From positions 24,332 to 88,331 of IMG/VR virus record IMGVR_UViG_3300042946_000144: a DNA stretch of 64,000 bases; one strand, written 5' to 3'. Positions 8,219 through 61,680 of the stretch are shown here, piece after piece. A program made the position numbers and the translations under genes. The notes beneath the pieces were generated by a model, which ran no database searches, was not told the DNA's origin, and saw nothing but the letters and a program-made list of their open reading frames with translations. Within the stretch, counting starts at the first letter, position 1, and each line of letters starts with the position of its first letter. The DNA comes from a virus (lineage: Duplodnaviria > Heunggongvirae > Uroviricota > Caudoviricetes).

Positions 8219-11200
8219 TTAACTTGTACAGAGTAGGATATCAATAATTAGTCCAGATCCATTACACTCATACACGTACGATCCATTTGAATAGAATCCA
8301 CTAACTGATACAGGAACAGTTAATGTTAGGTCTGTATAAATTATACAACCTAGTGACAAAGGAATACATGCTGGGTTTACGTAGTAAGCTATTTGAGATG
8401 CTGTACATGCTATTACATCAGTTGCACCATACCCCAAGAATATTCTTGTTCCGAATATAGTGGTTGATGTTGTTGTGGTTGTATAGTTAGAGCATGTAGA
8501 TATTTCAGTGATCACTCCTCCAACAACATGGAATACAGTTCCTATTAATGTTATGTCGTTAACAAAATACCAACCATCACCTATTGTATCACAATTAGTA
8601 ACTCCAACTCCTCCAAGATATACATTGCTTCCCACAGTTAATTGTGGAATAGACACTACAAATATTTGTGGAGTTGCACCACTTTCAAATACTGCTCCAA
8701 CAGCTGTACATGCATCATTGAAAGTTAAGCTTGATATAATTGATGGTCCTGTTGTAGGAGAATATCCATAAACAAAAGAATATACTTGCAAGTTTGTAGG
8801 TCTTTGACAAGGTGGAGGGATAGGTGGTTCTGTTATGTAAGCAACCCCTTCGATTGTACAGCCAATGATTTCAGCTGTTCCTGCAATTGTACAATTAAGA
8901 ACTGTTGTAGTGGTAGTTGTTGTACCAGGTCTTTCTGTAGAAGTGGTAGTAGTTGTTTCCTCAGGAGGAGTTACGACTGTTGCTAACACTTCAAAAACAG
9001 AATCATCACAGCATGAATTAATTCCAGAATAGAAGAAGTTGTTCTCAGCTATATACCAGTTAGGGATGTAACTGTGGAAACTAATCCAACTTTTTGAGTT
9101 GATTCCATAAGAAAGAGTCCAAGATTTATTACAGAAGTATTCAGGATTTGTAACATCCACTACCTCTCTAATTGTAAATTCACCATTTCCTATAGATCTA
9201 TCTATATAAAACTCTCTATTTACACTATCGTATTTTACATTCTTTTCAGGGAATGGAACATAGTCAAGTTTTGTTATAATCACTCTATCATACTTACTAT
9301 CATAGGTTCCGTGTAAACCTATTCCATTTAGATGATTGTCTATATTTACCTCAGGGAAATGTTTCAGTATTTTAAATGCTAGGTGTTCTACAAAGAATCT
9401 ATTCATACCAGAACCAAAAGCTGAAATGTCAATAGCTTGTGTTCCAGATATAATAAACACTTGTCCACGTTTAGCATCAACTGTAACCTGTCCTTGAGGA
9501 ATTTTCAGGAGCATTTTGTTCTGACTTCCTACATAACCAAGATCTGTTTCTGCAAAGTCAATAGGAGGTGCAGATGAAAACAACTTATTGTTTCCAATAT
9601 AAGCAGCCTGAGGGTTACTTGTATCAATTGTCAATAAGTTATTGTAAAGCAATGTCTTATTCTCAAATCTTGCAAGAATTGCCTTATTTTGAATACCATC
9701 CAAAGAAGTGAGTTTTCCGTAGTTCTGAGGGAAATCAAAATATGAAACAGGACGGTATATTAACCATTCTTCACTATCTGAATAGATTGCTCTGAATGGG
9801 AAATTTGTAAAACAAAGCTTATCTTCCCAATCTACAGGAAGGTGCGTGAATGCATTTTCTTTATTCTGCTTAGAGAACGTAACATTATAATAGTATGTAT
9901 TGTCCTGAGCAATTGTTACATTGTTTTCCTGTAACCAATCATCAGGAATATCTGTACTAACATGTGGCCAGAAGTCACCTTCTTTATTATTGAATGCCTG
10001 ACGAAGATCTGTATTTATAGAAGTTTCACAATAGAATGATGGAATTCCATAAGCAAACAAATAGAAATATCCATCGTAGAACATTCTATTTGGATTGTTA
10101 TTAGTTACTCCCTGTGAATTAGGACAGTCAAAGTTATGTGCCTTATATGAAATAAGATTTGGCATAACAGATGATACATCATTTCCATTGTTATAATTCA
10201 AGATGTAATCCTTTGTAACAGACCTTGCAGAGTGCCAGTATTTAGGATAGGCAACATTACCAATCTCATCATAGAAAATGTCTGAATCATCGGGAGCGTT
10301 TACACGGTTATCTATGAAGAAAGGAATCTTCACCTTAAATGCAAACTTACTAATGAATGTATCTCCTCCAAATACGGTGCTTGGGAGGTTTTGTGTTTTG
10401 GTCAATAGTCTTTGGAAACCTGTATCGATTGTTTCATAAGAATAAATCTGACCCCACTGATTTACAAATATGTTCTTGAGAGAAGCATAATAGGAAAGAA
10501 CATCAATCTTATCCTGTCTTGCAGGAACATCACATGCAGACCTTTCAGATATTGTATATCTAGACTTATCAGAAACAATAGGTATTCCTGTTGGACTGAT
10601 AGAAGGTTGTGTGTATGGATAACCTAAAGGAGGAACTGGAATGTTTGCTGAATAGTATTTTAAATCACTTTCCGTGATTATTGTTGAAACATATGGTAGT
10701 ATATCTAACGGAGTTGTTGTAGAATCAAAAGTTTCACACTTTCCTGCTCTGATTACTATAGATGCTGTTTGTAATGTTGTAGGATCAGTGTATGAAAATA
10801 AAGCAAATGGAGGAAAAAATCCAGAAGGAGATTCCGTATTGCATATCTCATATGTTCTATAAGGAATTGTAAAATCCCTAACATCATCTGTAGTTTTTAT
10901 ATATACAGAAGATTCTCTGTTAAAGTTGTTAATAGGATTGTCATCACCAACAGCTTGAACTCCAGGAATTAGGTATTGAGCAATGTCAATAGGTCTTTGT
11001 TTAATTCCTGCATTATCTTTTATTTCTCCAGAATAGTTATAAGAAGCAATTGAGTTAAATGAGTATGCAAAGTTTCTTCTTGATATTCCATTTAAGTAGA
11101 TTGCTAGATATGCTTGATATGCTGCGAAGAATACAGCAATATTAAAAGGATCTGTTTCCGAGGCTAGTCTATCGGATGAATCTAGAGCATCTCTTTGAGC

Positions 11201-13786
11201 TTCTTCTGACAAGAGTCTATATCTAGCATTGTCATTAACTTCTACATCATGTGATTTTCCAGCTCCATATATAACACTCTCAAGCTTTAGTACATTGCCT
11301 AAGAATGGTTGTCCAAAAGAAGTCTCTGGAGAATTAAATACCATTCTATATTTAGAACCATTGTCAGCAAATGCGTCTAAAGGATTTGGTGTACAAAGAT
11401 CATAACCAACTTCGTTTACAAGTGTTATTTCAAAGTCTGATAAAGAACCATCTATTCCTCTTGGATAGAAAATTGAATTAATGTAATATTCTTGGTATTC
11501 ACTTACTTTAACCTGTTTTCTAATTTCATTAAATCTACCAGTTGCAAATGTACTTGTTGGACAGCAAACATTTGAAGGATTTGTTACACATACATCACAA
11601 TTTGGTATAGAAATTGAAGTTGTACATCCAGTTCCCCTAGGATCATATATTCCATAAATTGCAAGTATTATTCCAGGGTTACTTTGAGTTCCTTTCCATT
11701 TTATAAGATATTGACTGTATGTGTTAGATCTCATACATGCCTTACCGCTAACTATAATAGGAAGATCAAGAGAACATATATCTTTTGTATCTCCATAGTT
11801 TTCAATTTTTACTCTCTGAGTCTTTTCTGTAAAACAACTTAAAAACTCTACAACTGTATTATCTGCATATGCCGTTATTGTAAAACTTCTGCAAAAGAAG
11901 TTCGTAGTGTTTGTTGCTGTTATATCAGCAGTAAAAGAGTTTGGTTTATCTAGAATAAACGGATCCTTGTTAAGATCGTTGTATGGGTAGTTGGCAAAAT
12001 AGTATTCTGTCTCATCCCTATCATACTTACCAACGTTTCTTAGAATACCTTTTGCTACAATTGACTTGTTTGTACCTCTGTTTCCTCTTACAATCTTAAA
12101 CCCTACAATTGCTTGCTTTTGTTCATTTGTAAGAGAAGACTGTTGGATTAAAGTTTGTATTTGAGAAGGATCGAGTTTAACACCAATTGGGAAAACTGCA
12201 TTAGATCCCATCACCATGTTATTAGCTCCAGTGAATAGCTTTGATTCAAATATTGGAGAAACACTTACATCTGGAAACTTATGATGTCTGATTGGTTGAT
12301 TTGCAAGATTTCCCCAAACTTCTTCATTACAAGGATAGACCTCTGTGGATTCCCAATATGCAAACTCTCCATATTTGTATGGAGTTGCATTTCCAATGTT
12401 TATATCAATAGCATCTCCCAACACTCTTGCAGTGTTGTATATCTTCCAATACGGACTATACCCAATTCCTGTATCAGGATCAACTCTATCAGGATCACCT
12501 ATGAAGTCTGGGTTTGAATCTGAAACATCTGCAAACGAATCATCATAATCATTCTTTGCTCTACCAGGAATATGGAAACCATCTGTTTGTTTACCATTAT
12601 CCAATAAGAAAACAATCTCAAATGCATACACCTCATCACGCAGGTAACCGCGTAAGTTTGTTGCATTTAGCTCATCAGAATATGTTTCTGTCTCAGGAAT
12701 TTTATACGTTTGCCAATATAAGTTTATATCATTGGCAATCTTCTGATAGTTGATTCTATCAATAGATGTTAGATTGTCCCATACAAGAATATCTTGTACA
12801 GCTGTAACATCCTGTGCAATTTCGTAATATGGGAATTTCTCAAAAATGTCTTCAATTGTCAGACGAATCTGTGTAACATTCTGTCCTGTATAGGTGATTT
12901 GCTTGTTACTCTTATCTATAAAATATGTACCAACAAGTTCAACAGATGTTATATCATTCACTGTTTTTACAACAGCAATGTTGAAATATTCATAGTATCC
13001 TGTAATATCAATTTCAGAAATGTCTATGATGATTGATTTTCCAACTAGGTAGTTGAAGTTTGGTGTTGTTAGGTCTGGGTTTGCAATAGGAGTTGGGTTT
13101 GTGACAGAATAGTAGGAAGTATATCCACTTCCTTCAGCATCACAATACTGAATAGCAAACTGATATGTACCAGCTGTAAGACTTCCGCCTGTCTGAATAT
13201 CAACAACGTTAAGTTGAGGAATTGAGAAGAGGGGTTGAAGTTTTAATCTGTTACAATCAATCTCAGGAATAGTCTCACCATCACAAACGTCCGAACCAGG
13301 CTTAACCTTATATGGAATTTCTGTAAGATCTAAAAATCTTCTAGGGTTTAGCCCATCTGTCCAATATACTTCCGTAGAGCAGTTTGTTATTCTGTGTACG
13401 GTTTTTAATATAGGATAGTTTATGTTGAAGTTTAAACAAGAAGCATTTATATATGTATGGTAGACACAATCATTGTTCTCCATAAATCCAATCTCTGAAT
13501 CTCCTGATATAGGATTAGAGAGGAAGAATACATGTTTATTTTGCTCGTAGATAGAATGGTGTCCTATCAATCTATATCCCTCAGGAAACTGAACACAGAA
13601 TTCATTTCCTTGTTCATTTTGATAGTTTACAATGCTACCATCAAAGTTTTCCAAAGATGCATTTAATGCATAAGTAAGTGCCCCCTTAGGAACTTGATTC
13701 ACGGTGTTATCCATGTTCAATCCTACGGTGGCAGTATTATATTCTGCTCTTATGTTGCCTTGATTAGTTGTTTCTTCTCCAGCCAT
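8219..13786 (-). CDS. giant structural protein (1855 aa); tail hub/baseplate or receptor-binding candidate
   Basis: Very long ORF downstream of the tail fiber genes. C-terminal poly-Thr linker (PPEETTTTTSTERPGTTTTTTT) followed by a Cys-rich domain. No enzymatic motif recognised. Confidence 0.6.
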   Translation of the reverse strand: MAGEETTNQGNIRAEYNTATVGLNMDNTVNQVPKGALTYALNASLENFDGSIVNYQNEQGNEFCVQFPEGYRLIGHHSIYEQNKHVFFLSNPISGDSEIGFMENNDCVYHTYINASCLNFNINYPILKTVHRITNCSTEVYWTDGLNPRRFLDLTEIPYKVKPGSDVCDGETIPEIDCNRLKLQPLFSIPQLNVVDIQTGGSLTAGTYQFAIQYCDAEGSGYTSYYSVTNPTPIANPDLTTPNFNYLVGKSIIIDISEIDITGYYEYFNIAVVKTVNDITSVELVGTYFIDKSNKQITYTGQNVTQIRLTIEDIFEKFPYYEIAQDVTAVQDILVWDNLTSIDRINYQKIANDINLYWQTYKIPETETYSDELNATNLRGYLRDEVYAFEIVFLLDNGKQTDGFHIPGRAKNDYDDSFADVSDSNPDFIGDPDRVDPDTGIGYSPYWKIYNTARVLGDAIDINIGNATPYKYGEFAYWESTEVYPCNEEVWGNLANQPIRHHKFPDVSVSPIFESKLFTGANNMVMGSNAVFPIGVKLDPSQIQTLIQQSSLTNEQKQAIVGFKIVRGNRGTNKSIVAKGILRNVGKYDRDETEYYFANYPYNDLNKDPFILDKPNSFTADITATNTTNFFCRSFTITAYADNTVVEFLSCFTEKTQRVKIENYGDTKDICSLDLPIIVSGKACMRSNTYSQYLIKWKGTQSNPGIILAIYGIYDPRGTGCTTSISIPNCDVCVTNPSNVCCPTSTFATGRFNEIRKQVKVSEYQEYYINSIFYPRGIDGSLSDFEITLVNEVGYDLCTPNPLDAFADNGSKYRMVFNSPETSFGQPFLGNVLKLESVIYGAGKSHDVEVNDNARYRLLSEEAQRDALDSSDRLASETDPFNIAVFFAAYQAYLAIYLNGISRRNFAYSFNSIASYNYSGEIKDNAGIKQRPIDIAQYLIPGVQAVGDDNPINNFNRESSVYIKTTDDVRDFTIPYRTYEICNTESPSGFFPPFALFSYTDPTTLQTASIVIRAGKCETFDSTTTPLDILPYVSTIITESDLKYYSANIPVPPLGYPYTQPSISPTGIPIVSDKSRYTISERSACDVPARQDKIDVLSYYASLKNIFVNQWGQIYSYETIDTGFQRLLTKTQNLPSTVFGGDTFISKFAFKVKIPFFIDNRVNAPDDSDIFYDEIGNVAYPKYWHSARSVTKDYILNYNNGNDVSSVMPNLISYKAHNFDCPNSQGVTNNNPNRMFYDGYFYLFAYGIPSFYCETSINTDLRQAFNNKEGDFWPHVSTDIPDDWLQENNVTIAQDNTYYYNVTFSKQNKENAFTHLPVDWEDKLCFTNFPFRAIYSDSEEWLIYRPVSYFDFPQNYGKLTSLDGIQNKAILARFENKTLLYNNLLTIDTSNPQAAYIGNNKLFSSAPPIDFAETDLGYVGSQNKMLLKIPQGQVTVDAKRGQVFIISGTQAIDISAFGSGMNRFFVEHLAFKILKHFPEVNIDNHLNGIGLHGTYDSKYDRVIITKLDYVPFPEKNVKYDSVNREFYIDRSIGNGEFTIREVVDVTNPEYFCNKSWTLSYGINSKSWISFHSYIPNWYIAENNFFYSGINSCCDDSVFEVLATVVTPPEETTTTTSTERPGTTTTTTTVLNCTIAGTAEIIGCTIEGVAYITEPPIPPPCQRPTNLQVYSFVYGYSPTTGPSIISSLTFNDACTAVGAVFESGATPQIFVVSIPQLTVGSNVYLGGVGVTNCDTIGDGWYFVNDITLIGTVFHVVGGVITEISTCSNYTTTTTSTTIFGTRIFLGYGATDVIACTASQIAYYVNPACIPLSLGCIIYTDLTLTVPVSVSGFYSNGSYVYECNGSGLIIDILLCTS

Positions 13787-14693
13787 ATCTGTTTACTCTA
13801 TTAGGAAGTTCATACATGTTGAATCTATTCAAATCATTCTTTATTCTTCTCTGCTTTGCATAAGCATCTTGCTTCTTGATTTCTATATCAGCCATGATGA
13901 ATGCCTCCTCAGAGAGCTGCTTGTAATATGCAAGCTTTGCCTGAAGTTGTTGGAATGTCTCATCGTTTGTTTGATTTGTTAAGGTTTCAAACACCTTGTA
14001 TTTAATGAATGTCTCAACATATTCTCTGATACGATAGTTATCAGGAATCATCTGATTACCTGCACCATCATATTCTGTTGCATAGAATATTAAATAAACT
14101 GTTCCGTTTCTAAAGTTTGTTACAAACTTATTATCTCTAATATCAAATGAATCCGCAGAAGAACTTCCAAGATTCTTACAATCCAGAGCACAATTTGCTC
14201 TTACAGAAATGTTTCCTGGTTTTAAAAGATACTGCTTTGTGATAGTAACTGCAGATTGATTGTTTGTTTTGTAAACAGCCTGAATAAGTTCTGGCATACA
14301 TGTTCCTGCACATTCAGGATTGGTGCATGTAGGATTGTTGCAAGGAGTTCCTCCAATTGTCAGAGGGCTCACTTGTATTGTTGTAGCTGATGCAGATTGT
14401 GTGTATAGAGAGTTTGGAGTTTGGAATGGATAACCATCAACATGTGTACAAAGCCAAGCTTCTCTTACAGCAAAGAAGTTATCTGGAAGTCTTGCTTCAA
14501 AGTCTTCAATATGTAATATCTGCTCTGCAATAACGTATGTAGCCCTACCTAGTTTTCTCAAGCATTTGTCAAGATAGGTGGGAAACATAAGATCATCTAC
14601 TGCTCCTGTATCAAAGTAGCTCTTAAGCTCTTCCTTTACAGTGGAATAAACAATCTCTGGAGATGTAAAGTTATATTTGTAATAGTAGCTCAT
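13764..14693 (-). CDS. hypothetical structural protein
   Basis: ORF 13764..14744. Start probably the internal Met (MSYYYKYNF) at 14693, which avoids overlap with the upstream stop. Confidence 0.5.
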   Translation of the reverse strand: MSYYYKYNFTSPEIVYSTVKEELKSYFDTGAVDDLMFPTYLDKCLRKLGRATYVIAEQILHIEDFEARLPDNFFAVREAWLCTHVDGYPFQTPNSLYTQSASATTIQVSPLTIGGTPCNNPTCTNPECAGTCMPELIQAVYKTNNQSAVTITKQYLLKPGNISVRANCALDCKNLGSSSADSFDIRDNKFVTNFRNGTVYLIFYATEYDGAGNQMIPDNYRIREYVETFIKYKVFETLTNQTNDETFQQLQAKLAYYKQLSEEAFIMADIEIKKQDAYAKQRRIKNDLNRFNMYELPNRVNRYGWRRNN

Positions 14694-14703
14694 TTTCTTT
14701 GTT

Positions 14704-15177
14704 TTATTTTTTCCATTCCCTGTACATATGCTGATATTTATCATCAGCCTTTATATAGTGTGAGAGAAGTCTTGATGTTGTTCTTGATGGTTTAAAATAC
14801 CAAAGTTCTGTATGTCTAAGTCTTGCAGAATCTTTGAACCACATCCATCCAAAGAAATAACCTTCAGTGTGGTAGTTGAAATTATAAATAATCTTTCCCT
14901 TTTCTCTTGTCTTTTGCCAATCTACAGGAAGATTTACAAACTCGTTATTCAATCCTATCTTCTTTCTTCTCTTCTTCTTGTTTACAGAAAACTCACCAAA
15001 ACCAAAAGGGAGCTTTGCTTTCTCCCCTGATTCAAGAATGTATTCTTTAAAAGCATCATTGAAGGAATAGATGATTGTTCTCCATTCATCAAATGTTAGC
15101 TTTATTGAGGGATTTTTCTTGCAAAAGCTTTTGTAGTTTTCAACACTTGCAGATCTCCAATCTACTTTAACTCTCAT
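14704..15177 (-). CDS. hypothetical protein (157 aa)
   Basis: ORF; 1-nt overlaps with its neighbours. Confidence 0.5.
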   Translation of the reverse strand: MRVKVDWRSASVENYKSFCKKNPSIKLTFDEWRTIIYSFNDAFKEYILESGEKAKLPFGFGEFSVNKKKRRKKIGLNNEFVNLPVDWQKTREKGKIIYNFNYHTEGYFFGWMWFKDSARLRHTELWYFKPSRTTSRLLSHYIKADDKYQHMYREWKK

Positions 15178-15905
15178 TATTTTCCGTTTGGTGCATTACT
15201 AGCCTGTCCATCCACTCCATCATCAGTCATATCTGTTTTAACTTGGAAGTATGTAGACAGGAGTTTTTTAGATGTTAGTTCCAACACTTGACTTTCCAGG
15301 TAACCAGGAAGTGCGAAGTCTTTGTCTAAAGGATTCTTGCACCATTCCTCATTGGTGGGCTGTGGTGTACCACAATCACATTCAGGATACATCACCTCAT
15401 TAGGAACATCTTGTTCGAAGAATGCAGAAATTCTAATTGCATGCATTAATGGGTTGCTTATGTATAAGTAACCATTCATAATCCAATAGTAATGTTCCTT
15501 CTTGATTATTGGGAGCTTAAGAAGATTTACATATCTATTCACTGTAATCTCTTTGAACTTTGTTCCCATTCCTCCCATAGCATTGATTGAATAAACTCCC
15601 TGTATAACATACTGATAATTTCCTTCAGAAATGCGAGGGAGCTTGTATCTACTTCTTGCTATTGTGCATTCATCAACATATTCACAACATTCAGAAATAG
15701 GAACTTCCACCATCTCCAAACAGGGAATGGTGGTAAATAGTGTGTTAGTTGCCCAAAGTTTTCTTAGGTTTGTTTCTCGTTTTACAAGAAGAAGGGTGTT
15801 GTTTCTGATCTCAGAAGCAATCACTCTGTCTGTGATTAGACTGTCTGTAGAAAGCAACTTGTGCATGCTACGTACATCTGAAACAAGTTTTCTAAGTGTT
15901 GACAT
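15177..15905 (-). CDS. hypothetical structural protein (242 aa)
   Basis: ORF in the operon; Cys-containing. Confidence 0.5.
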   Translation of the reverse strand: MSTLRKLVSDVRSMHKLLSTDSLITDRVIASEIRNNTLLLVKRETNLRKLWATNTLFTTIPCLEMVEVPISECCEYVDECTIARSRYKLPRISEGNYQYVIQGVYSINAMGGMGTKFKEITVNRYVNLLKLPIIKKEHYYWIMNGYLYISNPLMHAIRISAFFEQDVPNEVMYPECDCGTPQPTNEEWCKNPLDKDFALPGYLESQVLELTSKKLLSTYFQVKTDMTDDGVDGQASNAPNGK

Positions 15906-17176
15906 TATAAATACTGTTTGAATATATTTGTCATACCATCAAGCAGATCTATCATAAATGCTGTCACTTCTCCTTTAGAGCATGTGTAGCCATTTTTATC
16001 ATCCCATTGACTCTTAGCATTTGAGAATGCTGGGATTTGATAGAACTTGATTCCGTTAAAGTCTTGAGATAACTCATGATGTTTATCTCCTGTAAAGATG
16101 TAATAGTTGTTATGATTTGACCATCCATCTTTAAATTCCATAGGGAATATTCCTGCGAGCTTTGAAGGTTTGATAGCATCTCCGTGGTTAAACATCATTG
16201 CTGATGATCCGTAGGAAATGTACTTCCTATACTTAGGACTGTCATCAAATTTTAATCGAGAATTGCTTCTAAAAAACGTTGATAACCAATTAATTAGATG
16301 CCATCCTACAAACTCATCATGGTTCCCTGGTACATATATCACTTCAACTTCCCTGGAAGATTGAAGCATCAGTGTTATCATTCTAATCTCATGTTCACAA
16401 ACCATTCTGAATGATTCCTGATAAGATGTAATATTTGTTTGAGGAGTTCCTTTTGTTGTGGCATTTGTCCACTCACTGTTAAACTCATCAGAACCAATTA
16501 CATATACAATCTGATCGAGGTTGTTTGACAATCTTGCTTGAGAGATGATTGTTTCTGTCTTCTCAATGATTTTTGCAAATCTATCCTCCATGTTATTCTC
16601 ACCATCAACATCATGTTTGTTTAGGTGAGCATCTTGTTTGTTGATAACAAGACAACCATACGGTTTAACTGGCTCTATCTTAGGAAGCATTATGTCCTGA
16701 GAAGCTGGTTGATATTCCTTTAGAAACTCAACAAACACATCTTGGAACACTTGTTCTGTAGATTTCTTATTGAGCCAAGCTTTAACCTGCCAGTGTGGTG
16801 TAGAACTATTTCCCCAATAGTTCTGTACATATTTTGTAATTTCCCATTTAGAAGTGTCAATGTTACACTTCTCAATAAGATCGTCTAAACTTCTAATTTC
16901 ATTAGGGGTATTTAGAACAATCTCCCCAGTGCCCCTGGAGAGATCTTCCTCATACTTTACAATCCTTTCTTCTAGATCACCTATGTAATTAGCTGCTTCA
17001 GCCTCATTATTCAAACTTTCTCGATGTTTCAATTCCTTCATAAGCACTTCAACATCTTCTTCTGTGGTTCCTAGCTTTTCAGCATAGAACTTTTTACTCT
17101 TTTTCCACTGTAACATTTGTTCCAGCTGGAAGAGTAAATGCTGGTTGTTTGACATATGTAGTTTGTTTATTGTCAT
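15905..17176 (-). CDS. calcineurin-like metallophosphoesterase with N-terminal coiled-coil
   Basis: Motif series QDAHLNKHD (DxH), VIGSDEF (GDxxD variant), VPGNHDEF (GNHD/E), NHGD and GDKHHE. Confidence 0.55.
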   Translation of the reverse strand: MTINKLHMSNNQHLLFQLEQMLQWKKSKKFYAEKLGTTEEDVEVLMKELKHRESLNNEAEAANYIGDLEERIVKYEEDLSRGTGEIVLNTPNEIRSLDDLIEKCNIDTSKWEITKYVQNYWGNSSTPHWQVKAWLNKKSTEQVFQDVFVEFLKEYQPASQDIMLPKIEPVKPYGCLVINKQDAHLNKHDVDGENNMEDRFAKIIEKTETIISQARLSNNLDQIVYVIGSDEFNSEWTNATTKGTPQTNITSYQESFRMVCEHEIRMITLMLQSSREVEVIYVPGNHDEFVGWHLINWLSTFFRSNSRLKFDDSPKYRKYISYGSSAMMFNHGDAIKPSKLAGIFPMEFKDGWSNHNNYYIFTGDKHHELSQDFNGIKFYQIPAFSNAKSQWDDKNGYTCSKGEVTAFMIDLLDGMTNIFKQYL

Positions 17177-17234
17177 AAAGGTAAAGATTTATTCCAAATA
17201 TACCAAATTATTTCAACCTGGATGATTATATGGA

Positions 17235-17320
17235 ATAACCAAATTAATTAAATTAAAACCCCCAGCATGGAAATGCTAGGGGATGCTCCTGTAAAACCAA
17301 CAAAACAGGAGCTTTTTATA
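17235..17320. terminator. bidirectional terminator hairpin pair
   Basis: CCCCCAGCAT-GGAA-ATGCTAGGGG (17259..17282) with a T-rich run on the minus strand. GCTCCTGT-13nt loop-ACAGGAGC followed by TTTTTAT (17285..17319) on the plus strand. Confidence 0.55.
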
Positions 17321-17322
17321 TC

Positions 17323-17949
17323 TTATACGGTGCAAGAGGAGCTTTGTGTAAAGTTTCCAACCCCACTAACTAATTGAATATCAACATCATTTCTAACACA
17401 AACACTCTCAAAACCACCATCAGCAACTACAACTGTTGTACTAACATCAGATTCACATTCGAAATATCTAAAAGTTGCACCACCTCCACCAGCTGTTGCA
17501 AACAGTGTAGTGGATGTACATCCAGGTCTTCCAGCTGTACATGATCCTCTTGGATCAATAGATCCATCAGAAGAATTTGTAAAGAATGGATATGATGATG
17601 GATTATTATAAGCACAAATAAGTCTACCGCCTCCAGCAGATAGATCCTCTTCTGTAACAAGTCCTGTCTCACAATTCTTGTATGTAAGAATTGTTTTAGC
17701 GTTTGCAATTACTAAGAATTGAGTACAAGCTGCAGGAGTTGTTTGTAAAGGTATTTCTATAGAGTTTGTGCACTTTCCTGTAGATCTCACTATTACAGAA
17801 GTTGTTGGATCTGGAACAGTGACAGACACTCCTGTTGAGATTTCAGATGCTGTAGCTGTTCCTACTGATATAGTTGGGTTTACATTAGAGTAAATATTGA
17901 ATGGACCTGCGTCCGTTCCAATGGTTGTTAATTGTACAAATACTATCAT
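17323..17949 (-). CDS. hypothetical Cys/Thr-rich structural protein (208 aa)
   Basis: ORF followed on the minus strand by a hairpin plus T-tract. Confidence 0.5.
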   Translation of the reverse strand: MIVFVQLTTIGTDAGPFNIYSNVNPTISVGTATASEISTGVSVTVPDPTTSVIVRSTGKCTNSIEIPLQTTPAACTQFLVIANAKTILTYKNCETGLVTEEDLSAGGGRLICAYNNPSSYPFFTNSSDGSIDPRGSCTAGRPGCTSTTLFATAGGGGATFRYFECESDVSTTVVVADGGFESVCVRNDVDIQLVSGVGNFTQSSSCTV

Positions 17950-17968
17950 ATTGGTTTGATTTTAATTT

Positions 17969-19450
17969 TTATATTGCAGTTGAGTCTAAACTGATCCATT
18001 GACTTCCACCAGATGCAGCAACTCTTACAACAATTTTCTGAAGTGCTGTACTATAAAACATCTCACCGATTGTAGACTCTGAAATGGTTGGTAAAGTTGC
18101 TGTATTTGTTCCAGCGGTTTGTGCAAGTCTAATTCCTCCTGTAGATGCTATTTGATCAATACGACCTGTTACAAATACTGTTTTTCCTAAAATATTAACA
18201 ACTCCTTTTTGATAGTTATAAGCATCTCCTGAATCTCTTCCTTCAGACGTTAGTACTAATGACGTTCTTTGATCTTGTTCTTGGATTGGAAAATCTCCAT
18301 CAACGGTTGATGTTAACCATAATGTAGGTCCTCCACTTGTATACGTAAAAACCCAACCACTTGTATAAGGAGTACCATCTAGTGTAGTAGCTGCTATACC
18401 AGTGAAGTCGTCTATTCCATCTAAGATTCTTAATGTATAGGTCTTTCCTGGAACCCATCCAGGGAAAGTACTTCCGTAAGCATTGGGATTTACAGGGTTT
18501 GTCCATGTATCAATCCATAAAGGATTTCCAACTCTCTCATCAAAATAGTGAGCCTGTACAGCAGAGTCTCTATTTGTACCTTGTAAGTTCTCTAATATCT
18601 GGAAAGGAACGCCTGCAGGAACAGAGGCTGGAACTATCCAAGGATGATCAGTTAACCAATTCTCCCAAGCCCTATATGCAGGGTTATGAGTGGAGTTGTA
18701 AAGATAGTTTGTAGTCCACATAGCACTTGATGCCTTTGTAGAAATTATTCTAGATCTAGATCCATCATTTGTTGGAACATCAGGTGTTCCTGTTATAGAA
18801 TCATATGTATCAAAGTTTACAGCAGATCGATTGAACGTACTCTCAGATCTATTTGTAGCATTTGTATTATTGAATATAGTTATAAAGTAGTCACTTAGAG
18901 GAATTGATGTATTTTGTGTAAGAGTTCCTCCAAGTTGTATATTACTTCCTGTTTTTGTAAGACCATTGTTTGCCGTAAGAGCAGAAAGAATACTAGTTTG
19001 AACTGTGCTTGTTAAAGAGCTAATTGTACTTAATGTCAGTACACCGTTTGAATCAGCTGATACATAGTGTGTAGGACTTGCTGTAGTTTGTAAACCTTGT
19101 AGAGTTAGAGTGTTTGTTGCACTTGTTGTAATGACTGTTGGAGTGGTTAATGTTCCTCCAAGACCAATTGTTCCGTTTGTATTTGTAAGACCATTTCCTG
19201 CTCCTGATACAGAGGACGTTTTCTCAACAAGATCGTTGTTTGTAACACCAGCAGCATACCAATATTCTTTAACAGGACCAAAGTTTACAGTGAGACCAAC
19301 TGTTAATCCTATATATCTTTCTCCTGCAACTGTAGCAGCGTTTGCTGCAGATATAGCTGCATTGATACTTGTACCATTGTAAGGACCATACCTTCTATCT
19401 ACTGGTTTTGTTGCACTAACGTTAAGATTATCATTAAAAGTAATAGCCAT
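17969..19450 (-). CDS. tail fiber protein (493 aa), paralog B
   Basis: N-terminus MAITFNDNLNVSATKPVDRRYGPY...RYIGLTVG is nearly identical to the 842-aa neighbour. NGLT(K/N)TxGxIxLGGTL motifs occur twice. Ser/Thr/Gly/Asn-rich. Confidence 0.6.
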   Translation of the reverse strand: MAITFNDNLNVSATKPVDRRYGPYNGTSINAAISAANAATVAGERYIGLTVGLTVNFGPVKEYWYAAGVTNNDLVEKTSSVSGAGNGLTNTNGTIGLGGTLTTPTVITTSATNTLTLQGLQTTASPTHYVSADSNGVLTLSTISSLTSTVQTSILSALTANNGLTKTGSNIQLGGTLTQNTSIPLSDYFITIFNNTNATNRSESTFNRSAVNFDTYDSITGTPDVPTNDGSRSRIISTKASSAMWTTNYLYNSTHNPAYRAWENWLTDHPWIVPASVPAGVPFQILENLQGTNRDSAVQAHYFDERVGNPLWIDTWTNPVNPNAYGSTFPGWVPGKTYTLRILDGIDDFTGIAATTLDGTPYTSGWVFTYTSGGPTLWLTSTVDGDFPIQEQDQRTSLVLTSEGRDSGDAYNYQKGVVNILGKTVFVTGRIDQIASTGGIRLAQTAGTNTATLPTISESTIGEMFYSTALQKIVVRVAASGGSQWISLDSTAI

Positions 19451-19472
19451 TGTATATTATATTTTTGTTGAT

Positions 19473-22001
19473 TTACGGTTCAAATTGTACAGTTTTCCAA
19501 GTCGTACCATTGTGTATCTTAAGTTTGTTAACTGCAGAATTGTAATAAATATCACCAGCACTTCCAGAAGATGGATCGGTTGCTCTTGGTTGAAGACGCA
19601 TTACATCATTTATATGAAGTGGTCTTTGCGGATCAGAATTGTTAATTCCTACATTACCATCCCATCTAATTACAAGAGGTTCAATGCTCACAGTGTTAGC
19701 ACCAAATACACTTAAAAGGTTTCCAGAAGTTTGGTTACTGTTATTTCTAAGTGAAATCGCTGTACCTGATCCTACATTCGATTGCAACCTTATTCCACCA
19801 GTGTTATTTCTAAGTATTGCTGGAGATCCTGTAAAAGCATACCCTTCCGCACTACCTGATGAAAATCTCATAAATCCACTTGTGCTAAGTTGCAAACAAC
19901 CTTGTATTGCAGCTGTACCAGAAGCATCTATTTTAATTTCACCTGTTTGGCTAATTCCTGTTGTACCCTTTCCTTGAAGTTTGATTGCATAACTATCGTT
20001 ATCAATAGCACCAGTTTCTCCTACAAATATATTACCATTAACATGTAGCTTTTCTGAAGGAGAAACTGTTCCTATACCTACATATGTACCATTGTCATAA
20101 ACTTGACTATCTCCAATTGGAGCTGTGCTATTTGTCCACTTTACAAGTTTATTTAATGTACCAGCAGGCTGATTGAAAAGTCCACCTGACAATTTATCAG
20201 AAACTACTAACGAATTATATAAACCGCCTGATAAATTACTTACGTTTATTCCATCAACTTCAAGACCTCCACCTGTAAACTTAACTTCACCGTTTACATA
20301 CAATTTGTATGTAGGACTTGCAACAGTTACATCTTCATTTATTACAAGTCTTGGAGAAGCTGCTGTAAAAACTCCGCTACCTGCAGCATTTAATGAAACT
20401 GCACCGTCTGGGTGAATAGTTAATATGTTTTCTACACTATCTACAAGTGTTCCAACAGCTGAATCTCTTGTTACAAAATTATTAGATAGTGTTGAATTTA
20501 TTAGAGAGGTTTCATTTACAAATCTAGATTCTGCAAACAAACATTCTCCTGAATATGAAGTTTGAATGTTTCCTAGATATATAGATGATCTATCAGACCC
20601 TGGTGTGGATCCTTCATTATATATACCAAATACAGCTTCGCCAGTTTGATCAGATACAGTAAGTGTTTCAATTGGAAAATCCATAGAACCAGGCAATCCA
20701 ATATGAACAGCATATTTTGCTGCTGTAATCTTAGATGTATCATTAAATATTCCAACTGAACTTCCTATTGATGTAACTGCAGAGTCTACAAGAGAAGTTC
20801 CTAATGGACTACTCCATGCTGTTAGTCTATTTGGAGTTCCAGAACCAATTGAATTAGGAATTGTAATATTTCCAGATGTATCTGCAAATGTTCCATTCAC
20901 AGATAATGCTAGAGTTTGGAAAGAAGAAGGAGCTGATGGTAAATACATTGTCTGATTTCCTGATTGGGATAAAAGCGTATTTGTATACCCAGGACCATTA
21001 AATGTAATTCTATCAAACTCGCATGTTGTATAACTTGTTCCTACTTGAACAATGATTTTATTACTGGTTCCAAGTTGTATAATTCCACCACTAGTAGTAT
21101 TAGATATATAGATGTTTCCACTTTGTATATATGTTAATGAATCTCCTAAAGTGTTTTGGACGTTTATTTGATATCCTGTAACTGTGTTAGCCCCTACTCC
21201 AGAGGACACAACTTGTTGTAATGTTGGAACAGATGGTGTAAATGTTGTAAGGTATTCAGTGAGTGCTTTTACGGATGGGTATTTTGCATCATTATTAGGA
21301 TCAGAAGTTATACCAGAACCACTTAAAACTCTATTTGCACTGTTCTCTGGAATAAATCCTAGTCCTGTATCAAGAATATCCCAATCAGCATCAGTTGTTG
21401 GAGATGGACTATCTATAAGAGCTCTTACGCTAGCACCAATTGCAACAGCTGTTGTTCCTAAGTAACCAGCAGATCTGATATACCACAAATCACCTTTGAG
21501 AATAGCTCCAGCAGGACCACTTCCTCCTGTTGTAGGGTAGGCTCCTGGAGAAGTAGATGATGGAGAAAAACTTCCTCTATCATCCAATAGACCAGCAGCA
21601 ACACTGTCTGCATATGTCTTAACTGCTTTTACAGATGGATATTTTACATCACTTGCTTGATCTGTGATAACATCTGTAGAAATATTTGTTGTAAGCTGTG
21701 TAGGAGTTGTTACAGCAATAGTTGGATTTGTAGCACTTCCTGATACAGAAATACCAGTTCCTTGTGTAATAGATGTCACTCCGCCAGTAGCTGTTTTAGC
21801 AATAAGATCACCATCAGCTATACCATCATTAAACCAATATTCTACAACAGGATTTGTACCAATCCCTACAGTTAGTCCAATATATCTCTGACCAGAAGGA
21901 ATTGCTGCAAGTGCTGCTCCTGTATTAGCATATGGACCAAACCTAGAATCAACAGGTTTTTGAGCACTTACATTTATATTATCATTAAACGTGATAGCCA
22001 T
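19473..22001 (-). CDS. tail fiber protein (842 aa), paralog A
   Basis: N-terminus MAITFNDNINVSAQKPVDSRFGPY...RYIGLTVG is shared with the 493-aa fiber. Long beta-rich S/T/G/N composition. Confidence 0.65.
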   Translation of the reverse strand: MAITFNDNINVSAQKPVDSRFGPYANTGAALAAIPSGQRYIGLTVGIGTNPVVEYWFNDGIADGDLIAKTATGGVTSITQGTGISVSGSATNPTIAVTTPTQLTTNISTDVITDQASDVKYPSVKAVKTYADSVAAGLLDDRGSFSPSSTSPGAYPTTGGSGPAGAILKGDLWYIRSAGYLGTTAVAIGASVRALIDSPSPTTDADWDILDTGLGFIPENSANRVLSGSGITSDPNNDAKYPSVKALTEYLTTFTPSVPTLQQVVSSGVGANTVTGYQINVQNTLGDSLTYIQSGNIYISNTTSGGIIQLGTSNKIIVQVGTSYTTCEFDRITFNGPGYTNTLLSQSGNQTMYLPSAPSSFQTLALSVNGTFADTSGNITIPNSIGSGTPNRLTAWSSPLGTSLVDSAVTSIGSSVGIFNDTSKITAAKYAVHIGLPGSMDFPIETLTVSDQTGEAVFGIYNEGSTPGSDRSSIYLGNIQTSYSGECLFAESRFVNETSLINSTLSNNFVTRDSAVGTLVDSVENILTIHPDGAVSLNAAGSGVFTAASPRLVINEDVTVASPTYKLYVNGEVKFTGGGLEVDGINVSNLSGGLYNSLVVSDKLSGGLFNQPAGTLNKLVKWTNSTAPIGDSQVYDNGTYVGIGTVSPSEKLHVNGNIFVGETGAIDNDSYAIKLQGKGTTGISQTGEIKIDASGTAAIQGCLQLSTSGFMRFSSGSAEGYAFTGSPAILRNNTGGIRLQSNVGSGTAISLRNNSNQTSGNLLSVFGANTVSIEPLVIRWDGNVGINNSDPQRPLHINDVMRLQPRATDPSSGSAGDIYYNSAVNKLKIHNGTTWKTVQFEP

Positions 22002-22041
22002 TTTATAATTTTGTTAGTTTAATTTTAAAATATGTTACAAG

Positions 22042-23550
22042 TTATGGCTGTCCAGGAATTGATGTATTATCAAATCTAATACTGTTCATTGCTGTTTCAT
22101 AATCTGTAATGTAAAACTTATAGGAAATATTACTCCAAAGAGGAGTTCCTCCAGGTGCTGTTACATTTTGTGTGTAAGGAGATCCTAAGAAAGGTCCTGT
22201 TGGATTTGTAAAGTTTCCTTTGTTATTTGGATTATTTGTATCTTGCCATGAAAGCTTTGTGTTATCTGGAGTGTTTGATACAGGAATAGCAATCCAGCAC
22301 CAGTATTGTGTAGAACCACTATTGAAATTCACTGTAACAGATCCTAACGAGCTAGCAAGAACCTTGTTAACACCTGCATCATTAGCTTGAATCAATCCAG
22401 CAATAACTCCTGCTGTAGGTTGAGAACCTCCAAGAATCTTTCCATAATAGTAAGGATAGGTTCCTTTAAACGATTGTGTAGGAGTTGATATAGTTCCACC
22501 TGCTTGTGGTGTGTTTGTTGTATTTCCTGGAGTTCTAGTATCGTTCTGATTGTAACTTGTTTTCTTAGGAAGACCAGCATTATATGTTCCAGACACACTC
22601 AATGAAACTTCTGTTTCGATTCCACCTGCAGGAGGATTAGGTATTGTGAACGGTGCTGATATGTTTCCTTGATATATATTATTAGGGTTGTTTGGATCTG
22701 GGAAAGTGAATTGATCAGGAAGTGTAGAACCTGTTCCAATTACAGGGGCTGCTGTTCCAATTTGATAGAGAGATCCTCCGTTCACAGTTCTTGAGAACAA
22801 GAAACTTACAAATGCACCAGCATTGTTTTTTGTTCCTGTACCATTAGCTGTTAAAGTTATTGTAGATCCAATCTCCTGATATACAGTTAAGCTAGAAGGA
22901 GAAGAAATTGATAACGATATTGTCGGAAGTGCGTATGTAGGAAGTTGCAAGGGGAATAAGATTCTATCAAGTACCTCAACCAGCGTTAATTGTTTCCAAT
23001 TAGCAGCAGTGTCTGGAGTGGCACCACCAACAAGAATTGAAATTGCAGAATCAGGAACTTGTGTGTTATATAATGTTGATAAATTTGTTTCTTCTGCGTT
23101 TGTCCAAACCAAACCTACGTTGTCTTCAAGAGTTATGTTTTTTCCTAAAGATGTTGGTGGGTATTTCTTAACAACACCTAGAGAGTCAACTACTAATATG
23201 TAATCAGGCTCAGAACTTTGTGTTGGAAGGTTTGTAATAGACAAAGATTTGCCATTGGTATTCAGAATAGTTGGAGAAGAAAGAATTCCTCCAAATCTAA
23301 TATCATCACCAACTTTTGTTAGACCATTACTCGCAGTAACTGTAACCTGAACCTGTGAAATGGCATTATCAAGCTTTTCTATAGCAAGACAAAGATTGTT
23401 TAGATTCTCAATACCTGAATTTGGAAGAGCAGGTCCGCAATATAATATAGTGTCACAACAATTACTACCACTGCCACTTCCACCACTAGATGGACTGTTG
23501 CAAGGATCTATATAAGTGCCATAACAAGGATTTCCAGGAAGACAAGACAT
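22042..23550 (-). CDS. tail fiber-like protein (502 aa), Cys-rich N-terminus
   Basis: MSCLPGNPCYGTYIDPCNSP...; contains NGLTKVGDDIRFGGIL motif shared with the 493-aa fiber. Confidence 0.5.
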   Translation of the reverse strand: MSCLPGNPCYGTYIDPCNSPSSGGSGSGSNCCDTILYCGPALPNSGIENLNNLCLAIEKLDNAISQVQVTVTASNGLTKVGDDIRFGGILSSPTILNTNGKSLSITNLPTQSSEPDYILVVDSLGVVKKYPPTSLGKNITLEDNVGLVWTNAEETNLSTLYNTQVPDSAISILVGGATPDTAANWKQLTLVEVLDRILFPLQLPTYALPTISLSISSPSSLTVYQEIGSTITLTANGTGTKNNAGAFVSFLFSRTVNGGSLYQIGTAAPVIGTGSTLPDQFTFPDPNNPNNIYQGNISAPFTIPNPPAGGIETEVSLSVSGTYNAGLPKKTSYNQNDTRTPGNTTNTPQAGGTISTPTQSFKGTYPYYYGKILGGSQPTAGVIAGLIQANDAGVNKVLASSLGSVTVNFNSGSTQYWCWIAIPVSNTPDNTKLSWQDTNNPNNKGNFTNPTGPFLGSPYTQNVTAPGGTPLWSNISYKFYITDYETAMNSIRFDNTSIPGQP

Positions 23551-23570
23551 ATATTAATTTATTTAAAAGA

Positions 23571-61605: not shown

Positions 61606-61631
61606 TTAGATATTTATTAGAACAATTATTA

Positions 61632-61658
61632 GAGGGAGGTATATAACTCCCTCATTTT
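61632..61658 (+). terminator. rho-independent terminator
   Basis: GAGGGAG-GTATATAA-CTCCCTC followed by ATTTTCA. Confidence 0.6.
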
Positions 61659-61680
61659 CAACACTTTAAATTAAAACAAC

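What the first reader, a model, noticed from the sequence alone, without database searches (positions are those of the whole stretch)
15905..17176. Calcineurin-like metallophosphoesterase inside the tail gene cluster
The ordered motif series DxH, GDxxD-like, GNHD/E, NHGD and GDKHH with an N-terminal coiled-coil sits between the tail fibers and the giant proteins. The candidate roles are a virion-associated phosphatase or nuclease and a structural-role protein with a degenerate fold. The placement is unusual either way.
Basis: partly seen in the sequence, partly recalled or inferred. Interest (0 to 1): 0.55.

Follow-up and report, generated by a model that had tools for sequence, protein, structure and literature searches.

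The report
HTH-linked metallophosphoesterase heading crAss-like tail operon
The flagged gene encodes a metal-dependent phosphodiesterase (most likely a DNA nuclease) with a DNA-binding domain at its front end; the protein family is common but untested in phages, and the only unusual point is that a large group of environmental crAss-like phages keeps this gene as the first gene of the tail-barrel operon.

Summary

The window is a crAss-like phage. The gene order MPP, Ring-2, IHF-like, Ring-1, giant protein recurs in 148 of 163 related loci and in Leptolyngbya phage Lbo-JY46. It sits behind a conserved terminator and a promoter-like motif, with TAATG overlaps at the MPP/Ring-2 and Ring-2/IHF-like junctions. 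In other phages the family sits in DNA-metabolism or pre-packaging regions. crAss001 lacks it in the 83 kb examined.

Best reading: an active, DNA-tethered phosphodiesterase or nuclease expressed with the tail genes. A degenerate structural role is rejected. Virion packaging is untested. It is a new member of a known, uncharacterised phage family. Interest is modest.

The parts
15905..17155 (-). HTH-MPP protein coding sequence. The probable true start is M8 at 17155, giving 416 aa. The longest ORF runs to 17176, giving 423 aa. Residue numbers in this report use the 423-aa numbering.
   Evidence: ORF. 416-aa public gene calls. Homologues start at M8. ACTACATATG leader at 17153-17162. PHROG 704 at E=6.7e-49.
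15908..16660 (-). C-terminal metallophosphoesterase domain (about residues 173-423) carrying motifs DAH, GSDEFN, GNHDE, NHGD and GDKHH. No capping domain follows it.
16715..16963 (-). Small beta-rich middle domain plus helix (about residues 72-154). Its fold was not identified.
17003..17149 (-). N-terminal helix-turn-helix domain (about residues 10-58) of sigma70 region 4 / LuxR type, continuing into a long helix (39-71/81).
17192..17209 (-). Promoter-like motif AATTTGGTATATTTGGAA. It contains TATATTTG, which fits the Bacteroidota -7 box TAnnTTTG (consensus from my own knowledge). It is conserved upstream of the gene across the clade.
   Evidence: Alignment of 47 distinct upstream regions. TATTTGGAA also occurs at 39409-39417 (-), at the head of the structural block. 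Function is inferred only.
17259..17282 (-). Intrinsic-terminator-like hairpin CCCCTAGCAT-TTCC-ATGCTGGGGG followed by a T run. It separates the variable fibre genes from the MPP operon.
   Evidence: Present in 47 of 63 related loci by a simple scan, with compensatory stem changes visible.
17285..17312 (-). Conserved hairpin GCTCCTGT-TTTGTTGGTTTT-ACAGGAGC. The loop is highly conserved and the stem covaries.
   Evidence: No Rfam match. Role unknown.
15177..15905 (-). Tail ring protein 2 (R2). Its start overlaps the MPP stop codon (TAATG).
   Evidence: Pfam CrAss_Ring_2 at 3.6e-17. Junction sequence.
14704..15177 (-). IHF/HU-like protein, counterpart of crAss001 gp42. Its start overlaps the R2 stop codon (TAATG).
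   Evidence: BLASTP against crAss001 gp42: E=1e-8, 33% over 80 aa. Weak Bac_DNA_binding hit. Junction.
13764..14744 (-). Tail ring protein 1 (R1).
   Evidence: Pfam CrAss_Ring_1 at 1.7e-11.
8219..13786 (-). Giant 1855-aa virion protein, in the position that the muzzle protein holds in crAss001.
   Evidence: PHROG 37948 at 3.3e-112 and PHROG 15100 at 1.4e-32, both 'virion structural protein'. crAss001 gene order.

Best explanation
The gene encodes a catalytically competent two-metal phosphodiesterase of the calcineurin/Mre11 fold. Its most likely substrate is DNA (exo- or endonuclease activity). An N-terminal sigma70-r4/LuxR-type HTH and a small beta domain probably tether it to DNA.

It belongs to a large, experimentally uncharacterised phage family (PHROG 704, labelled 'DNA repair exonuclease' or 'phosphoesterase'). 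In one broad group of environmental crAss-like phages, this gene has become the first gene of the tail-barrel transcription unit (MPP, R2, IHF-like, R1, giant protein). It follows a conserved terminator and a promoter-like motif, and TAATG stop/start overlaps join MPP to R2 and R2 to the IHF-like gene. It is therefore probably made together with the tail and the DNA-binding IHF-like protein.

The inferred job is a DNA-processing step. Candidates are trimming or clearing replication and recombination intermediates before or during packaging, or degrading host DNA for nucleotide salvage.

Shown: the fold, the intact active-site motifs, the HTH, family membership, the conserved gene order and the regulatory context.
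Inferred: enzymatic activity, DNA as substrate, timing of expression, and the biological role.
For: - Motifs are intact and invariant in 78 diverse relatives. They are also conserved between this window and phage Lbo-JY46 at 26-28% identity.
- PHROG 704 matches at 6.7e-49 and PHROG 284 'exonuclease' at 6.4e-12.
- The family profile aligns motifs I-III with T. maritima Mre11/SbcD.
- The N-terminal domain is an HTH.
- Gene order is conserved. R2 lies directly downstream in 148 of 163 loci. Pfam confirms R2 and R1 in L001, L086, L092 and L093.
- Within the clade the MPP is as conserved as its structural neighbours: median 69% identity, against R2 77%, IHF-like 75% and R1 72%. The upstream fibre genes are not conserved.
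- There are TAATG overlaps at the MPP/R2 and R2/IHF-like junctions and a terminator and promoter-like motif upstream.
- In other phages the family lies among DNA and nucleotide-metabolism genes or just before the packaging genes. Thermus phage Lalka27b has exonuclease, nucleotidase, dNMP kinase in a row next to TerL. Lrm1 has it before an HNH endonuclease and terS. Rctr41k has it before the terminase. PHB17 has it after a helicase, VRR-NUC and methyltransferase. L088 has it after a helicase and RNR.
- A different phage MPE is experimentally a DNA-damaging phosphodiesterase (PMC12287305).
Against: - No member of this family has a measured activity or substrate in the literature I could search.
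- The Mre11 capping domain is absent, and no SbcC/Rad50-like partner is adjacent.
- A cytoplasmic DNA-metabolism enzyme is an odd first gene for a tail operon, and that placement is conserved over deep divergence. This fits a virion or assembly role at least as naturally.
- Pfam Metallophos does not detect this sequence.
Confidence: 0.5

Rival explanations
1. Virion-packaged (cargo) enzyme. The HTH-MPP protein is loaded into the particle with the tail-barrel, muzzle and cargo proteins and is ejected into the host. There it attacks host DNA or a signalling nucleotide at the very start of infection. This would be a pre-made counterpart of early nucleases such as T5 A1 or mycobacteriophage gp48.
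For: - It is the first gene of the conserved operon that encodes R2, R1 and the giant virion proteins.
- It is as conserved as those proteins.
- It shares the ACTACATATG start context with only two other genes, both in the structural block.
- Crassviruses are known to carry cargo proteins in the particle (PMC10172136; one search covers the tail composition, and cargo ejection is from my own knowledge of that paper).
- Early host-DNA attack by phage MPEs is documented (PMC12287305; T5 A1 annotation).
Against: - There is no proteomic or structural evidence.
- crAss001, the only crassvirus with a full virion atlas, has no homologue in the 83 kb examined.
- Non-virion genes do sit in this module: the IHF-like gene here, and the homing endonucleases gp37 and gp41 in crAss001.
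- In siphophages the same family lies outside the structural modules.
- Storing an active nuclease next to packaged DNA would need an inhibition mechanism.
Confidence: 0.17
2. The substrate is not DNA. The enzyme would be a phosphodiesterase or phosphatase for small molecules or proteins. Possible substrates are cyclic mono- or oligonucleotide immune signals, Ap4A, nucleotides for salvage, or phosphoproteins. The HTH would then serve regulation or localisation.
For: - T5 A1-type calcineurin-like enzymes have been predicted to counter nucleotide signals (PMC7824862).
- The family neighbours nucleotidases or HAD phosphatases in Lalka27b, Rctr41k and L087.
Against: - The top structural neighbours are nucleases and polymerase-associated MPPs.
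- The DNA-binding-type HTH recurs across the family.
- There are no PADLOC matches and no hits to known anti-defence families.
- A neighbouring nucleotidase and dNMP kinase fit a nuclease that feeds salvage equally well.
Confidence: 0.15
3. Chiefly a DNA-binding regulator. The sigma-region-4-like HTH binds the conserved palindrome or promoter region upstream of its own operon, and the MPP domain acts as an accessory or sensor.
For: - Conserved palindromic ATAACCAA/TTGGTTAT elements and a promoter-like motif lie just upstream in most clade members.
- One relative is annotated as GcrA-like.
Against: - Strict invariance of every catalytic residue argues that catalysis is the selected function.
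- The palindrome is degenerate in this window.
- Many family members lack a recognisable HTH, or match only from residue 75 onward.
Confidence: 0.06
4. A structural tail component that has kept a dead phosphoesterase fold.
Against: - All seven metal-ligand or catalytic positions are conserved across 78 diverse relatives, and over 150 related loci keep the gene.
- The only deviation is H-to-D at residue 364, and Asp is itself a metal ligand.
- No similarity to any crAss001 virion protein was found.
Confidence: 0.02

Closest known systems
PHROG 704 ('DNA repair exonuclease') and its annotated phage relatives, variously labelled 'phosphoesterase', 'metallophosphoesterase' or 'DNA polymerase II small subunit'
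   Same: Full-length HMM match: residues 17-411 against profile positions 11-374 of 390, E=6.7e-49. The architecture and length (about 390-480 aa) are the same in BFVD models. tblastn with the window protein finds 680 phage records, and with the L092 homologue 2027 records.
   Different: In those phages the gene sits in DNA-metabolism or pre-packaging regions. Here it is the first gene of the crAss-type tail-barrel operon. This clade has GDKHH where the family consensus is GHxH. The family name comes from homology only; I found no experiment.
Mre11 / SbcD nucleases
   Different: There is no C-terminal capping domain and no Rad50-binding helices; the protein ends with the MPP domain. It has an N-terminal HTH and beta domain instead. 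No SbcC/Rad50-like ATPase is adjacent in any locus examined. Sequence similarity is marginal (E=0.024).
Archaeal PolD small subunit DP1 and eukaryotic polymerase B-subunits
   Different: No OB fold could be shown for the middle domain. The gene is not next to the polymerase, which is the PolA at 47167..49122 on the other strand. Eukaryotic B-subunits are catalytically dead, whereas this protein keeps all ligands.
Mycobacteriophage cluster-A metallophosphoesterase (A10ZJ24 gp48; Bxb1 gp47 / L5 gp54)
   Same: A phage-encoded MPE with all the motifs. Experiments show it to be a phosphodiesterase that damages host DNA and counters defence (PMC12287305). It is a functional precedent for a stand-alone phage MPP nuclease.
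   Different: It is about 255 aa with no N-terminal HTH or beta domain, is expressed early, and lies in the replication arm. It is not detectably the same family: A3 HMM score 1.4 bits, hhalign probability 0.4%.
Coliphage T5 A1
   Same: A C-terminal calcineurin-like domain behind a long N-terminal extension, involved in host DNA degradation (annotation; PMC7824862).
   Different: It is a pre-early gene on the first-step-transfer DNA. It does not match the family HMM (score -1.0 bits).
'MPP metallophosphatase' of gut crAss-like phages (Yutin et al. 2021)
   Same: A metallophosphatase listed among the partly conserved crAss-like genes (PMC7886860).
   Different: In the delta group it is drawn in the replication block next to an AAA ATPase (supplement). 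That suggests an SbcCD-like pair (my inference). Here the gene is in the structural block with no ATPase neighbour. Sequence relatedness could not be tested.

Membership tests
Calcineurin-like metallophosphoesterase (MPP) superfamily | Ordered motifs that supply the two-metal site: DxH, GDxx(D/N), GNH(D/E), H, and GHxH | tested here: met
   D182/H184, D230, N285/H286, H331 and H366 are invariant in 78 relatives. The first His of GHxH is Asp364 in this clade, which is still a possible metal ligand.
Calcineurin-like metallophosphoesterase (MPP) superfamily | Beta-sandwich MPP fold | tested here: met
Calcineurin-like metallophosphoesterase (MPP) superfamily | Match to Pfam PF00149 / PF12850 (operational test) | tested here: inconclusive
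   No hit for this sequence at E<=1. 25 of 78 relatives hit Metallophos (best 3.2e-4) and 13 of 78 hit Metallophos_2 (best 5.8e-5). The family lies at the edge of the Pfam models.
Calcineurin-like metallophosphoesterase (MPP) superfamily | Metal-dependent phosphoester hydrolysis | not testable with these tools
   Needs biochemistry.
PHROG 704 phage 'DNA repair exonuclease' family | Full-length profile match and shared domain architecture | tested here: met
   E=6.7e-49, residues 17-411 against 11-374 of 390. Full-length Foldseek matches to phage proteins of 390-480 aa.
Mre11/SbcD nucleases | MPP nuclease domain followed by a capping domain | tested here: not met
   The MPP domain runs to the C-terminus at residue 423, and the extra domains are N-terminal.
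Mre11/SbcD nucleases | Partner Rad50/SbcC ATPase encoded alongside | tested here: not met
   The neighbours are the fibre genes and R2 in the window and in about 150 loci. Only 64 kb of a roughly 111-kb genome was visible, so a distant partner is not excluded.
Crassvirus virion (tail) proteins | Homology to a protein resolved in the crAss001 virion, or to a crAss structural Pfam family | tested here: not met
   No crAss structural Pfam hit. No homologue in crAss001 between 20 and 102.7 kb. The crAss001 tail is built from gp34/35/38/39/40/43/44.
Crassvirus virion (tail) proteins | Physical presence in purified particles | not testable with these tools
   Needs virion proteomics or cryo-EM of a clade member.
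Homing endonucleases inserted in crAss tail modules (such as crAss001 gp37 and gp41) | GIY-YIG, HNH, LAGLIDADG or NUMOD domains and a sporadic distribution | tested here: not met
   gp37 and gp41 carry GIY-YIG/NUMOD domains. The window protein has none, and it holds the same position in 148 of 163 loci.
Gut crAss-like 'MPP' (Yutin 2021) | Location in the replication block beside an AAA ATPase | tested here: not met
   Supplementary gene map, against the structural-block position here.
Gut crAss-like 'MPP' (Yutin 2021) | Match to the authors' MPP profile | not testable with these tools

The most novel reading that the evidence does not exclude
The HTH-MPP protein is a genuine virion cargo of this environmental crAss-like lineage: a nuclease or phosphodiesterase packed with the tail-barrel, muzzle and cargo proteins and injected into the host ahead of or with the DNA. 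That would explain why the gene has been held as the first gene of the tail-barrel operon across deep divergence.
Probability: 0.15. Interest if true: 0.6.

Novelty: new member of a known kind. Interest (0 to 1): 0.3.

Why it matters
The enzyme family is among the more common 'annotated but never tested' phage proteins. It matches thousands of 50%-identity clusters and about 2000 GenBank phage records. Its label 'DNA repair exonuclease' rests on homology alone.

The crAss-like lineages studied here give it an unusually fixed context. It has its own terminator and promoter-like motif, and it lies in a tightly packed operon with the ring proteins and the IHF-like protein (TAATG overlaps at two junctions). 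One member, Leptolyngbya phage Lbo-JY46, is in culture. That makes a direct test of its role feasible: packaging-linked DNA processing, host DNA scavenging, or injected cargo.

If it is a cytoplasmic nuclease, the result is ordinary. If it is packaged, it would add an enzymatic cargo to the crassvirus ejection repertoire.

Tried and rejected
1. Pfam Metallophos on the protein itself gave no hit at E<=1. NCBIfam gave nothing meaningful. A PDB sequence search with the single protein gave nothing.
2. DNA-level similarity of 13000-20000 to GenBank phages gave no match.
3. I asked whether the gene is analogous to crAss001 gp41 or gp37, the 'endonucleases' in the same module. Rejected: these are GIY-YIG/NUMOD homing endonucleases.
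4. I looked for a PD-(D/E)XK nuclease in the window's structural block, as a counterpart of Yutin's PDDEXK_a. None was found among the ORFs scanned.
5. I looked for a second MPP paralogue in the window. There is none.
6. I tested family-level homology to Bxb1 gp47 (cluster-A MPE) and to T5 A1. Neither is detectable.
7. I tried to identify the fold of the middle beta domain with a separate N-terminal model. Only the HTH was matched.
8. PADLOC gave no hit. Rfam on the upstream region gave no hit.
9. The search for related loci with the diverse alignment A3 failed because no stretch was conserved enough. With P0187 it found nothing.
10. p-crAssphage records (NC_024711, JQ995537) are not in the collection. 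Yutin 2018 is not held.
11. Literature searches for Lbo-JY46, Crassvirales plus phosphoesterase, and crAss-like plus 'DNA repair exonuclease' returned nothing relevant.
12. A neighbour-joining tree of MPPs, without bootstrap, split the crAss-like MPPs into two groups. It is too weak to decide between one and two acquisitions.
Full report
**1. The observation**

The ORF listing finds a 423-aa ORF at exactly 15905..17176 on the minus strand.
- QD182-A-H184
- G228-S-D230-E-F-N233
- G284-N-H-D-E288
- N330-H331-G-D333
- G363-D-K-H366-H367

This is not a chance pattern:
- PHROG 704 ("DNA repair exonuclease") matches residues 17-411 at E=6.7e-49. PHROG 284 ("exonuclease") matches at 6.4e-12.
- An exhaustive phmmer search finds 4108 50%-identity clusters at E<=1e-3 and 2235 at E<=1e-10.
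- In an alignment of 78 relatives sharing only 22-53% identity with the window protein, the invariant columns are D182, H184, D230, T240, N285, H286, H331 and H366. All but T240 are the textbook metal-ligand or catalytic positions.
- The family consensus for the last motif is GHxH. The window's clade has GDKHH, so the first His is replaced by Asp364, which is nearly invariant within the clade.

There are two corrections to the observation.
- The real start is most likely M8 at 17155. Public gene calls are 416 aa and homologues align from that Met. The decamer ACTACATATG ends at that ATG. Its only three exact copies in the window all sit at gene starts in the structural block: 17153, 28582 and 31612. 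In the closest relative, the window's upstream ATG corresponds to ATT in the untranslated leader.
- The "N-terminal coiled-coil" is really an HTH domain that runs into a long helix (section 2).

**2. What the protein is**

NCBIfam and a PDB sequence search also fail. Among the 78 relatives, 25 hit PF00149 (best E=3.2e-4) and 13 hit PF12850 (best 5.8e-5). The family profile aligns motifs I-III with T. maritima Mre11/SbcD at E=0.024.

- then purple acid phosphatases, 5'-nucleotidases, Rv0805 and others

The MPP domain spans about residues 173-423 and ends the protein. There is no Mre11-type capping domain.

Between the HTH and the MPP domain lie a long helix (39-71/81) and a four-stranded beta domain with a helix (72-154). 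I could not assign the fold of that domain.

Foldseek against BFVD finds many phage proteins of 390-480 aa with the same full-length architecture. They are labelled "uncharacterized", "calcineurin-like phosphoesterase", "putative metallophosphatase" or "DNA polymerase II small subunit".

**3. Where it sits**

The window is a crAss-like phage.
- The minus strand carries TerL (34860..36884), portal (32263..34860) and the Crass-type major capsid protein (28750..30303).
- These are followed by the ORF run 17323..24662. Only the first of these ORFs (23571..24662) has tail or tail-fibre PHROG hits.
- Then comes the flagged gene, then Ring-2 (15177..15905, CrAss_Ring_2 at 3.6e-17).
- Next is an IHF/HU-like protein (14704..15177), which matches crAss001 gp42 at 1e-8.
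- Then comes Ring-1 (13764..14744, CrAss_Ring_1 at 1.7e-11), then giant virion proteins of 1855 and 1518 aa.
- The plus strand carries PolA, a DnaB-like helicase, another helicase, primase and rIIA/rIIB homologues.

The MPP stop and the R2 start share a base (TAATG), as do the R2 stop and the IHF-like start.

Upstream of the MPP gene is a 146-nt spacer. It contains:
- a hairpin with the loop TTTGTTGGTTTT (17285-17312)
- a strong terminator-like hairpin with a T run (17259-17282)
- a promoter-like AATTTGGTATATTTGGAA (17192-17209), which contains a TAnnTTTG-type box

These elements are conserved, with compensatory stem changes, in 47 distinct upstream regions from related contigs. TATTTGGAA recurs at the head of the structural block at 39409-39417.

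The gene therefore looks like the first cistron of a transcription unit that continues into R2, IHF-like, R1 and the giant proteins. This is an inference from sequence, not from expression data.

**4. Is the placement conserved?**

Yes, and deeply.
- The best GenBank relative is Leptolyngbya phage Lbo-JY46 (26% identity over 91% of the protein). Its gene order is homologue, R2, 169-aa ORF, R1, 1654-aa ORF.
- IMG/VR scans seeded with the window's clade and with divergent representatives (P0156, P0178, P0159) recovered 175 loci with a family member. Of the 163 with at least 900 nt downstream, 148 have R2 within 400 nt and 152 within 1.5 kb. Of the 126 with at least 2.6 kb downstream, 118 have R1 within 3 kb.
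- Pfam confirmed R2 and R1 in L086, L092 and L093.
- Eleven of the fifteen loci without R2 directly downstream have no R2 at all. Eight are clearly other phage types (a Flavobacterium siphophage, Lrm1, the T1-like PHB17, Thermus Lalka27b, Tunturi_3, Rctr41k, L088 and L091). L087, L089 and L090 were not characterised further. In the other four (L086, L134, L147, L172) R2 lies about 570-640 nt further downstream.
- Within the window's clade the MPP is about as conserved (median 69% identity) as R2 (77%), IHF-like (75%), R1 (72%) and the N-terminus of the giant protein (66%). The 208-aa and 493-aa ORFs just upstream have essentially no counterparts in the same 80 loci. The conserved block therefore begins at the spacer and the MPP gene.
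- A crude NJ tree puts the window clade, the P0159 clade, L093 and L086 together, but puts Lbo-JY46 and L092 nearer to non-crAss members. One capture and two captures both remain possible.

**5. Comparison with known crassviruses**

In crAss001 the order is THA gp38, THB gp39, R2 gp40, gp41, IHF-like gp42, R1 gp43, muzzle gp44 (PMC10172136). gp37 and gp41 are GIY-YIG/NUMOD homing endonucleases. The family HMM finds nothing in crAss001 between 20 and 102.7 kb.

Yutin et al. 2021 list an "MPP metallophosphatase" among the partly conserved crAss-like genes. Their supplementary map of the delta group draws it in the replication block beside an AAA ATPase. That is a different context; I could not test whether the sequences are related.

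In other phages the family sits among DNA and nucleotide-metabolism genes or just ahead of the packaging genes:
- Thermus phage Lalka27b: exonuclease, nucleotidase, dNMP kinase, next to TerL
- Lrm1: the gene, then an HNH endonuclease, then terS
- Rctr41k: methyltransferase, HAD hydrolase, then the gene, then terminase
- PHB17: helicase, VRR-NUC, methyltransferase, then the gene, then the lysis genes
- L088: helicase and RNR upstream

**6. How it most likely works**

Shown:
- an intact two-metal MPP active site under strong purifying selection
- an N-terminal DNA-binding-type HTH
- membership of a large phage family
- a fixed position as the first gene of the tail-barrel operon

Inferred: the protein is an active phosphodiesterase, most probably a DNA exo- or endonuclease held on DNA by the HTH, and it is made together with the tail and the IHF-like protein.

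The role I favour (confidence about 0.5 for the whole statement) is DNA processing. This could be removal or trimming of replication and recombination intermediates around packaging, or breakdown of host DNA for salvage. The second option fits the nucleotidase and dNMP kinase neighbours in Lalka27b.

Experimental precedents for stand-alone phage MPP nucleases exist:
- Mycobacteriophage A10ZJ24 gp48 has phosphodiesterase activity, disrupts the host genome and counters defence (PMC12287305).
- T5 A1 is a calcineurin-like protein tied to host DNA degradation.

Neither is detectably in the same family, so they are analogies and not evidence of orthology.

Rivals:
- A packaged, ejected enzyme (about 0.17). 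This is attractive because of the operon and the leader shared with structural-block genes, but it is untested.
- A regulator acting through the HTH on the conserved upstream palindromes (about 0.06).
- A dead structural fold (about 0.02). Residue conservation contradicts it.

**7. Novelty and verdict**

The protein is a new member of a known but experimentally uncharacterised phage family. It is not an Mre11/SbcD orthologue, because it lacks a capping domain and no SbcC partner is adjacent. It is not a known crassvirus virion protein.

What appears to be undescribed in the literature I could search is the conserved arrangement "HTH-MPP, then R2, IHF-like, R1, giant protein" in a broad set of environmental crAss-like phages, with its own regulatory spacer.

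This is a modest but testable lead, and a cultured member exists. It is not a surprise at the level of mechanism. Interest is 0.3. The cargo reading would raise it to about 0.6, at an estimated probability of 0.15.

Noticed in passing
window 2781..7337 (-): The 1518-aa giant ORF downstream of the ring and muzzle genes has a Pfam SET-domain hit at its N-terminus: PF00856, E=9.7e-7, 29.6 bits (above the 22.4 cut-off), residues 51-88. A lysine-methyltransferase-like domain in a putative ejected or cargo protein would be worth a look.
   Followed up: no
window 17177..17322 (-), and the equivalent spacer in L003-L082: The spacer upstream of the MPP gene is densely conserved. It has a hairpin with a highly conserved loop (TTTGTTGGTTTT) and covarying stem, a terminator with compensatory changes, ATAACCAA/TTGGTTAT palindromic repeats (degenerate in the window), a promoter-like TTTGG..ATTT motif, and a conserved leader. 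There is no Rfam match. It marks the boundary between the hypervariable fibre genes and the conserved tail-barrel block.
   Followed up: partly
window 17153-17162, 28582-28591 and 31612-31621 (all on the minus strand): ACTACATATG occurs exactly three times in 64 kb, each time with its ATG as a gene start in the structural block: the MPP gene, the 322-aa ORF after the capsid gene, and the 425-aa ORF after the portal region. Each follows a longer leader of the form AAACCAAATAAAYAACTACAT. It may be a shared translation-initiation or 5'-leader element.
   Followed up: partly
window 17323..19450 (-): The 208-aa and 493-aa ORFs immediately upstream of the MPP operon have no family hits and essentially no homologues in 80 otherwise closely related contigs. 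This is consistent with rapidly swapped receptor-binding modules.
   Followed up: partly
window 59266..63213 (+): rIIA-like (779 aa, PHROG 612 at 1.7e-59) and rIIB-like (510 aa) genes are present in this crAss-like genome.
   Followed up: no
window 39367..39606: The divergent region between the structural (-) and replication (+) blocks is rich in G5-7/C5-7 runs and contains the TATTTGGAA promoter-like motif at 39409-39417 (-). It is probably the main regulatory hub or the origin region.
   Followed up: no
L094 (Thermus phage Lalka27b) 4818-7510: A family member is followed directly by genes annotated as nucleotidase and dNMP kinase. This operon layout suggests DNA breakdown feeding nucleotide salvage.
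   Followed up: no
L088 3177-5885: The ribonucleotide reductase-like ORF upstream of a non-crAss family member contains an intein splicing domain (Pfam Intein_splicing at 6.7e-9).
   Followed up: no
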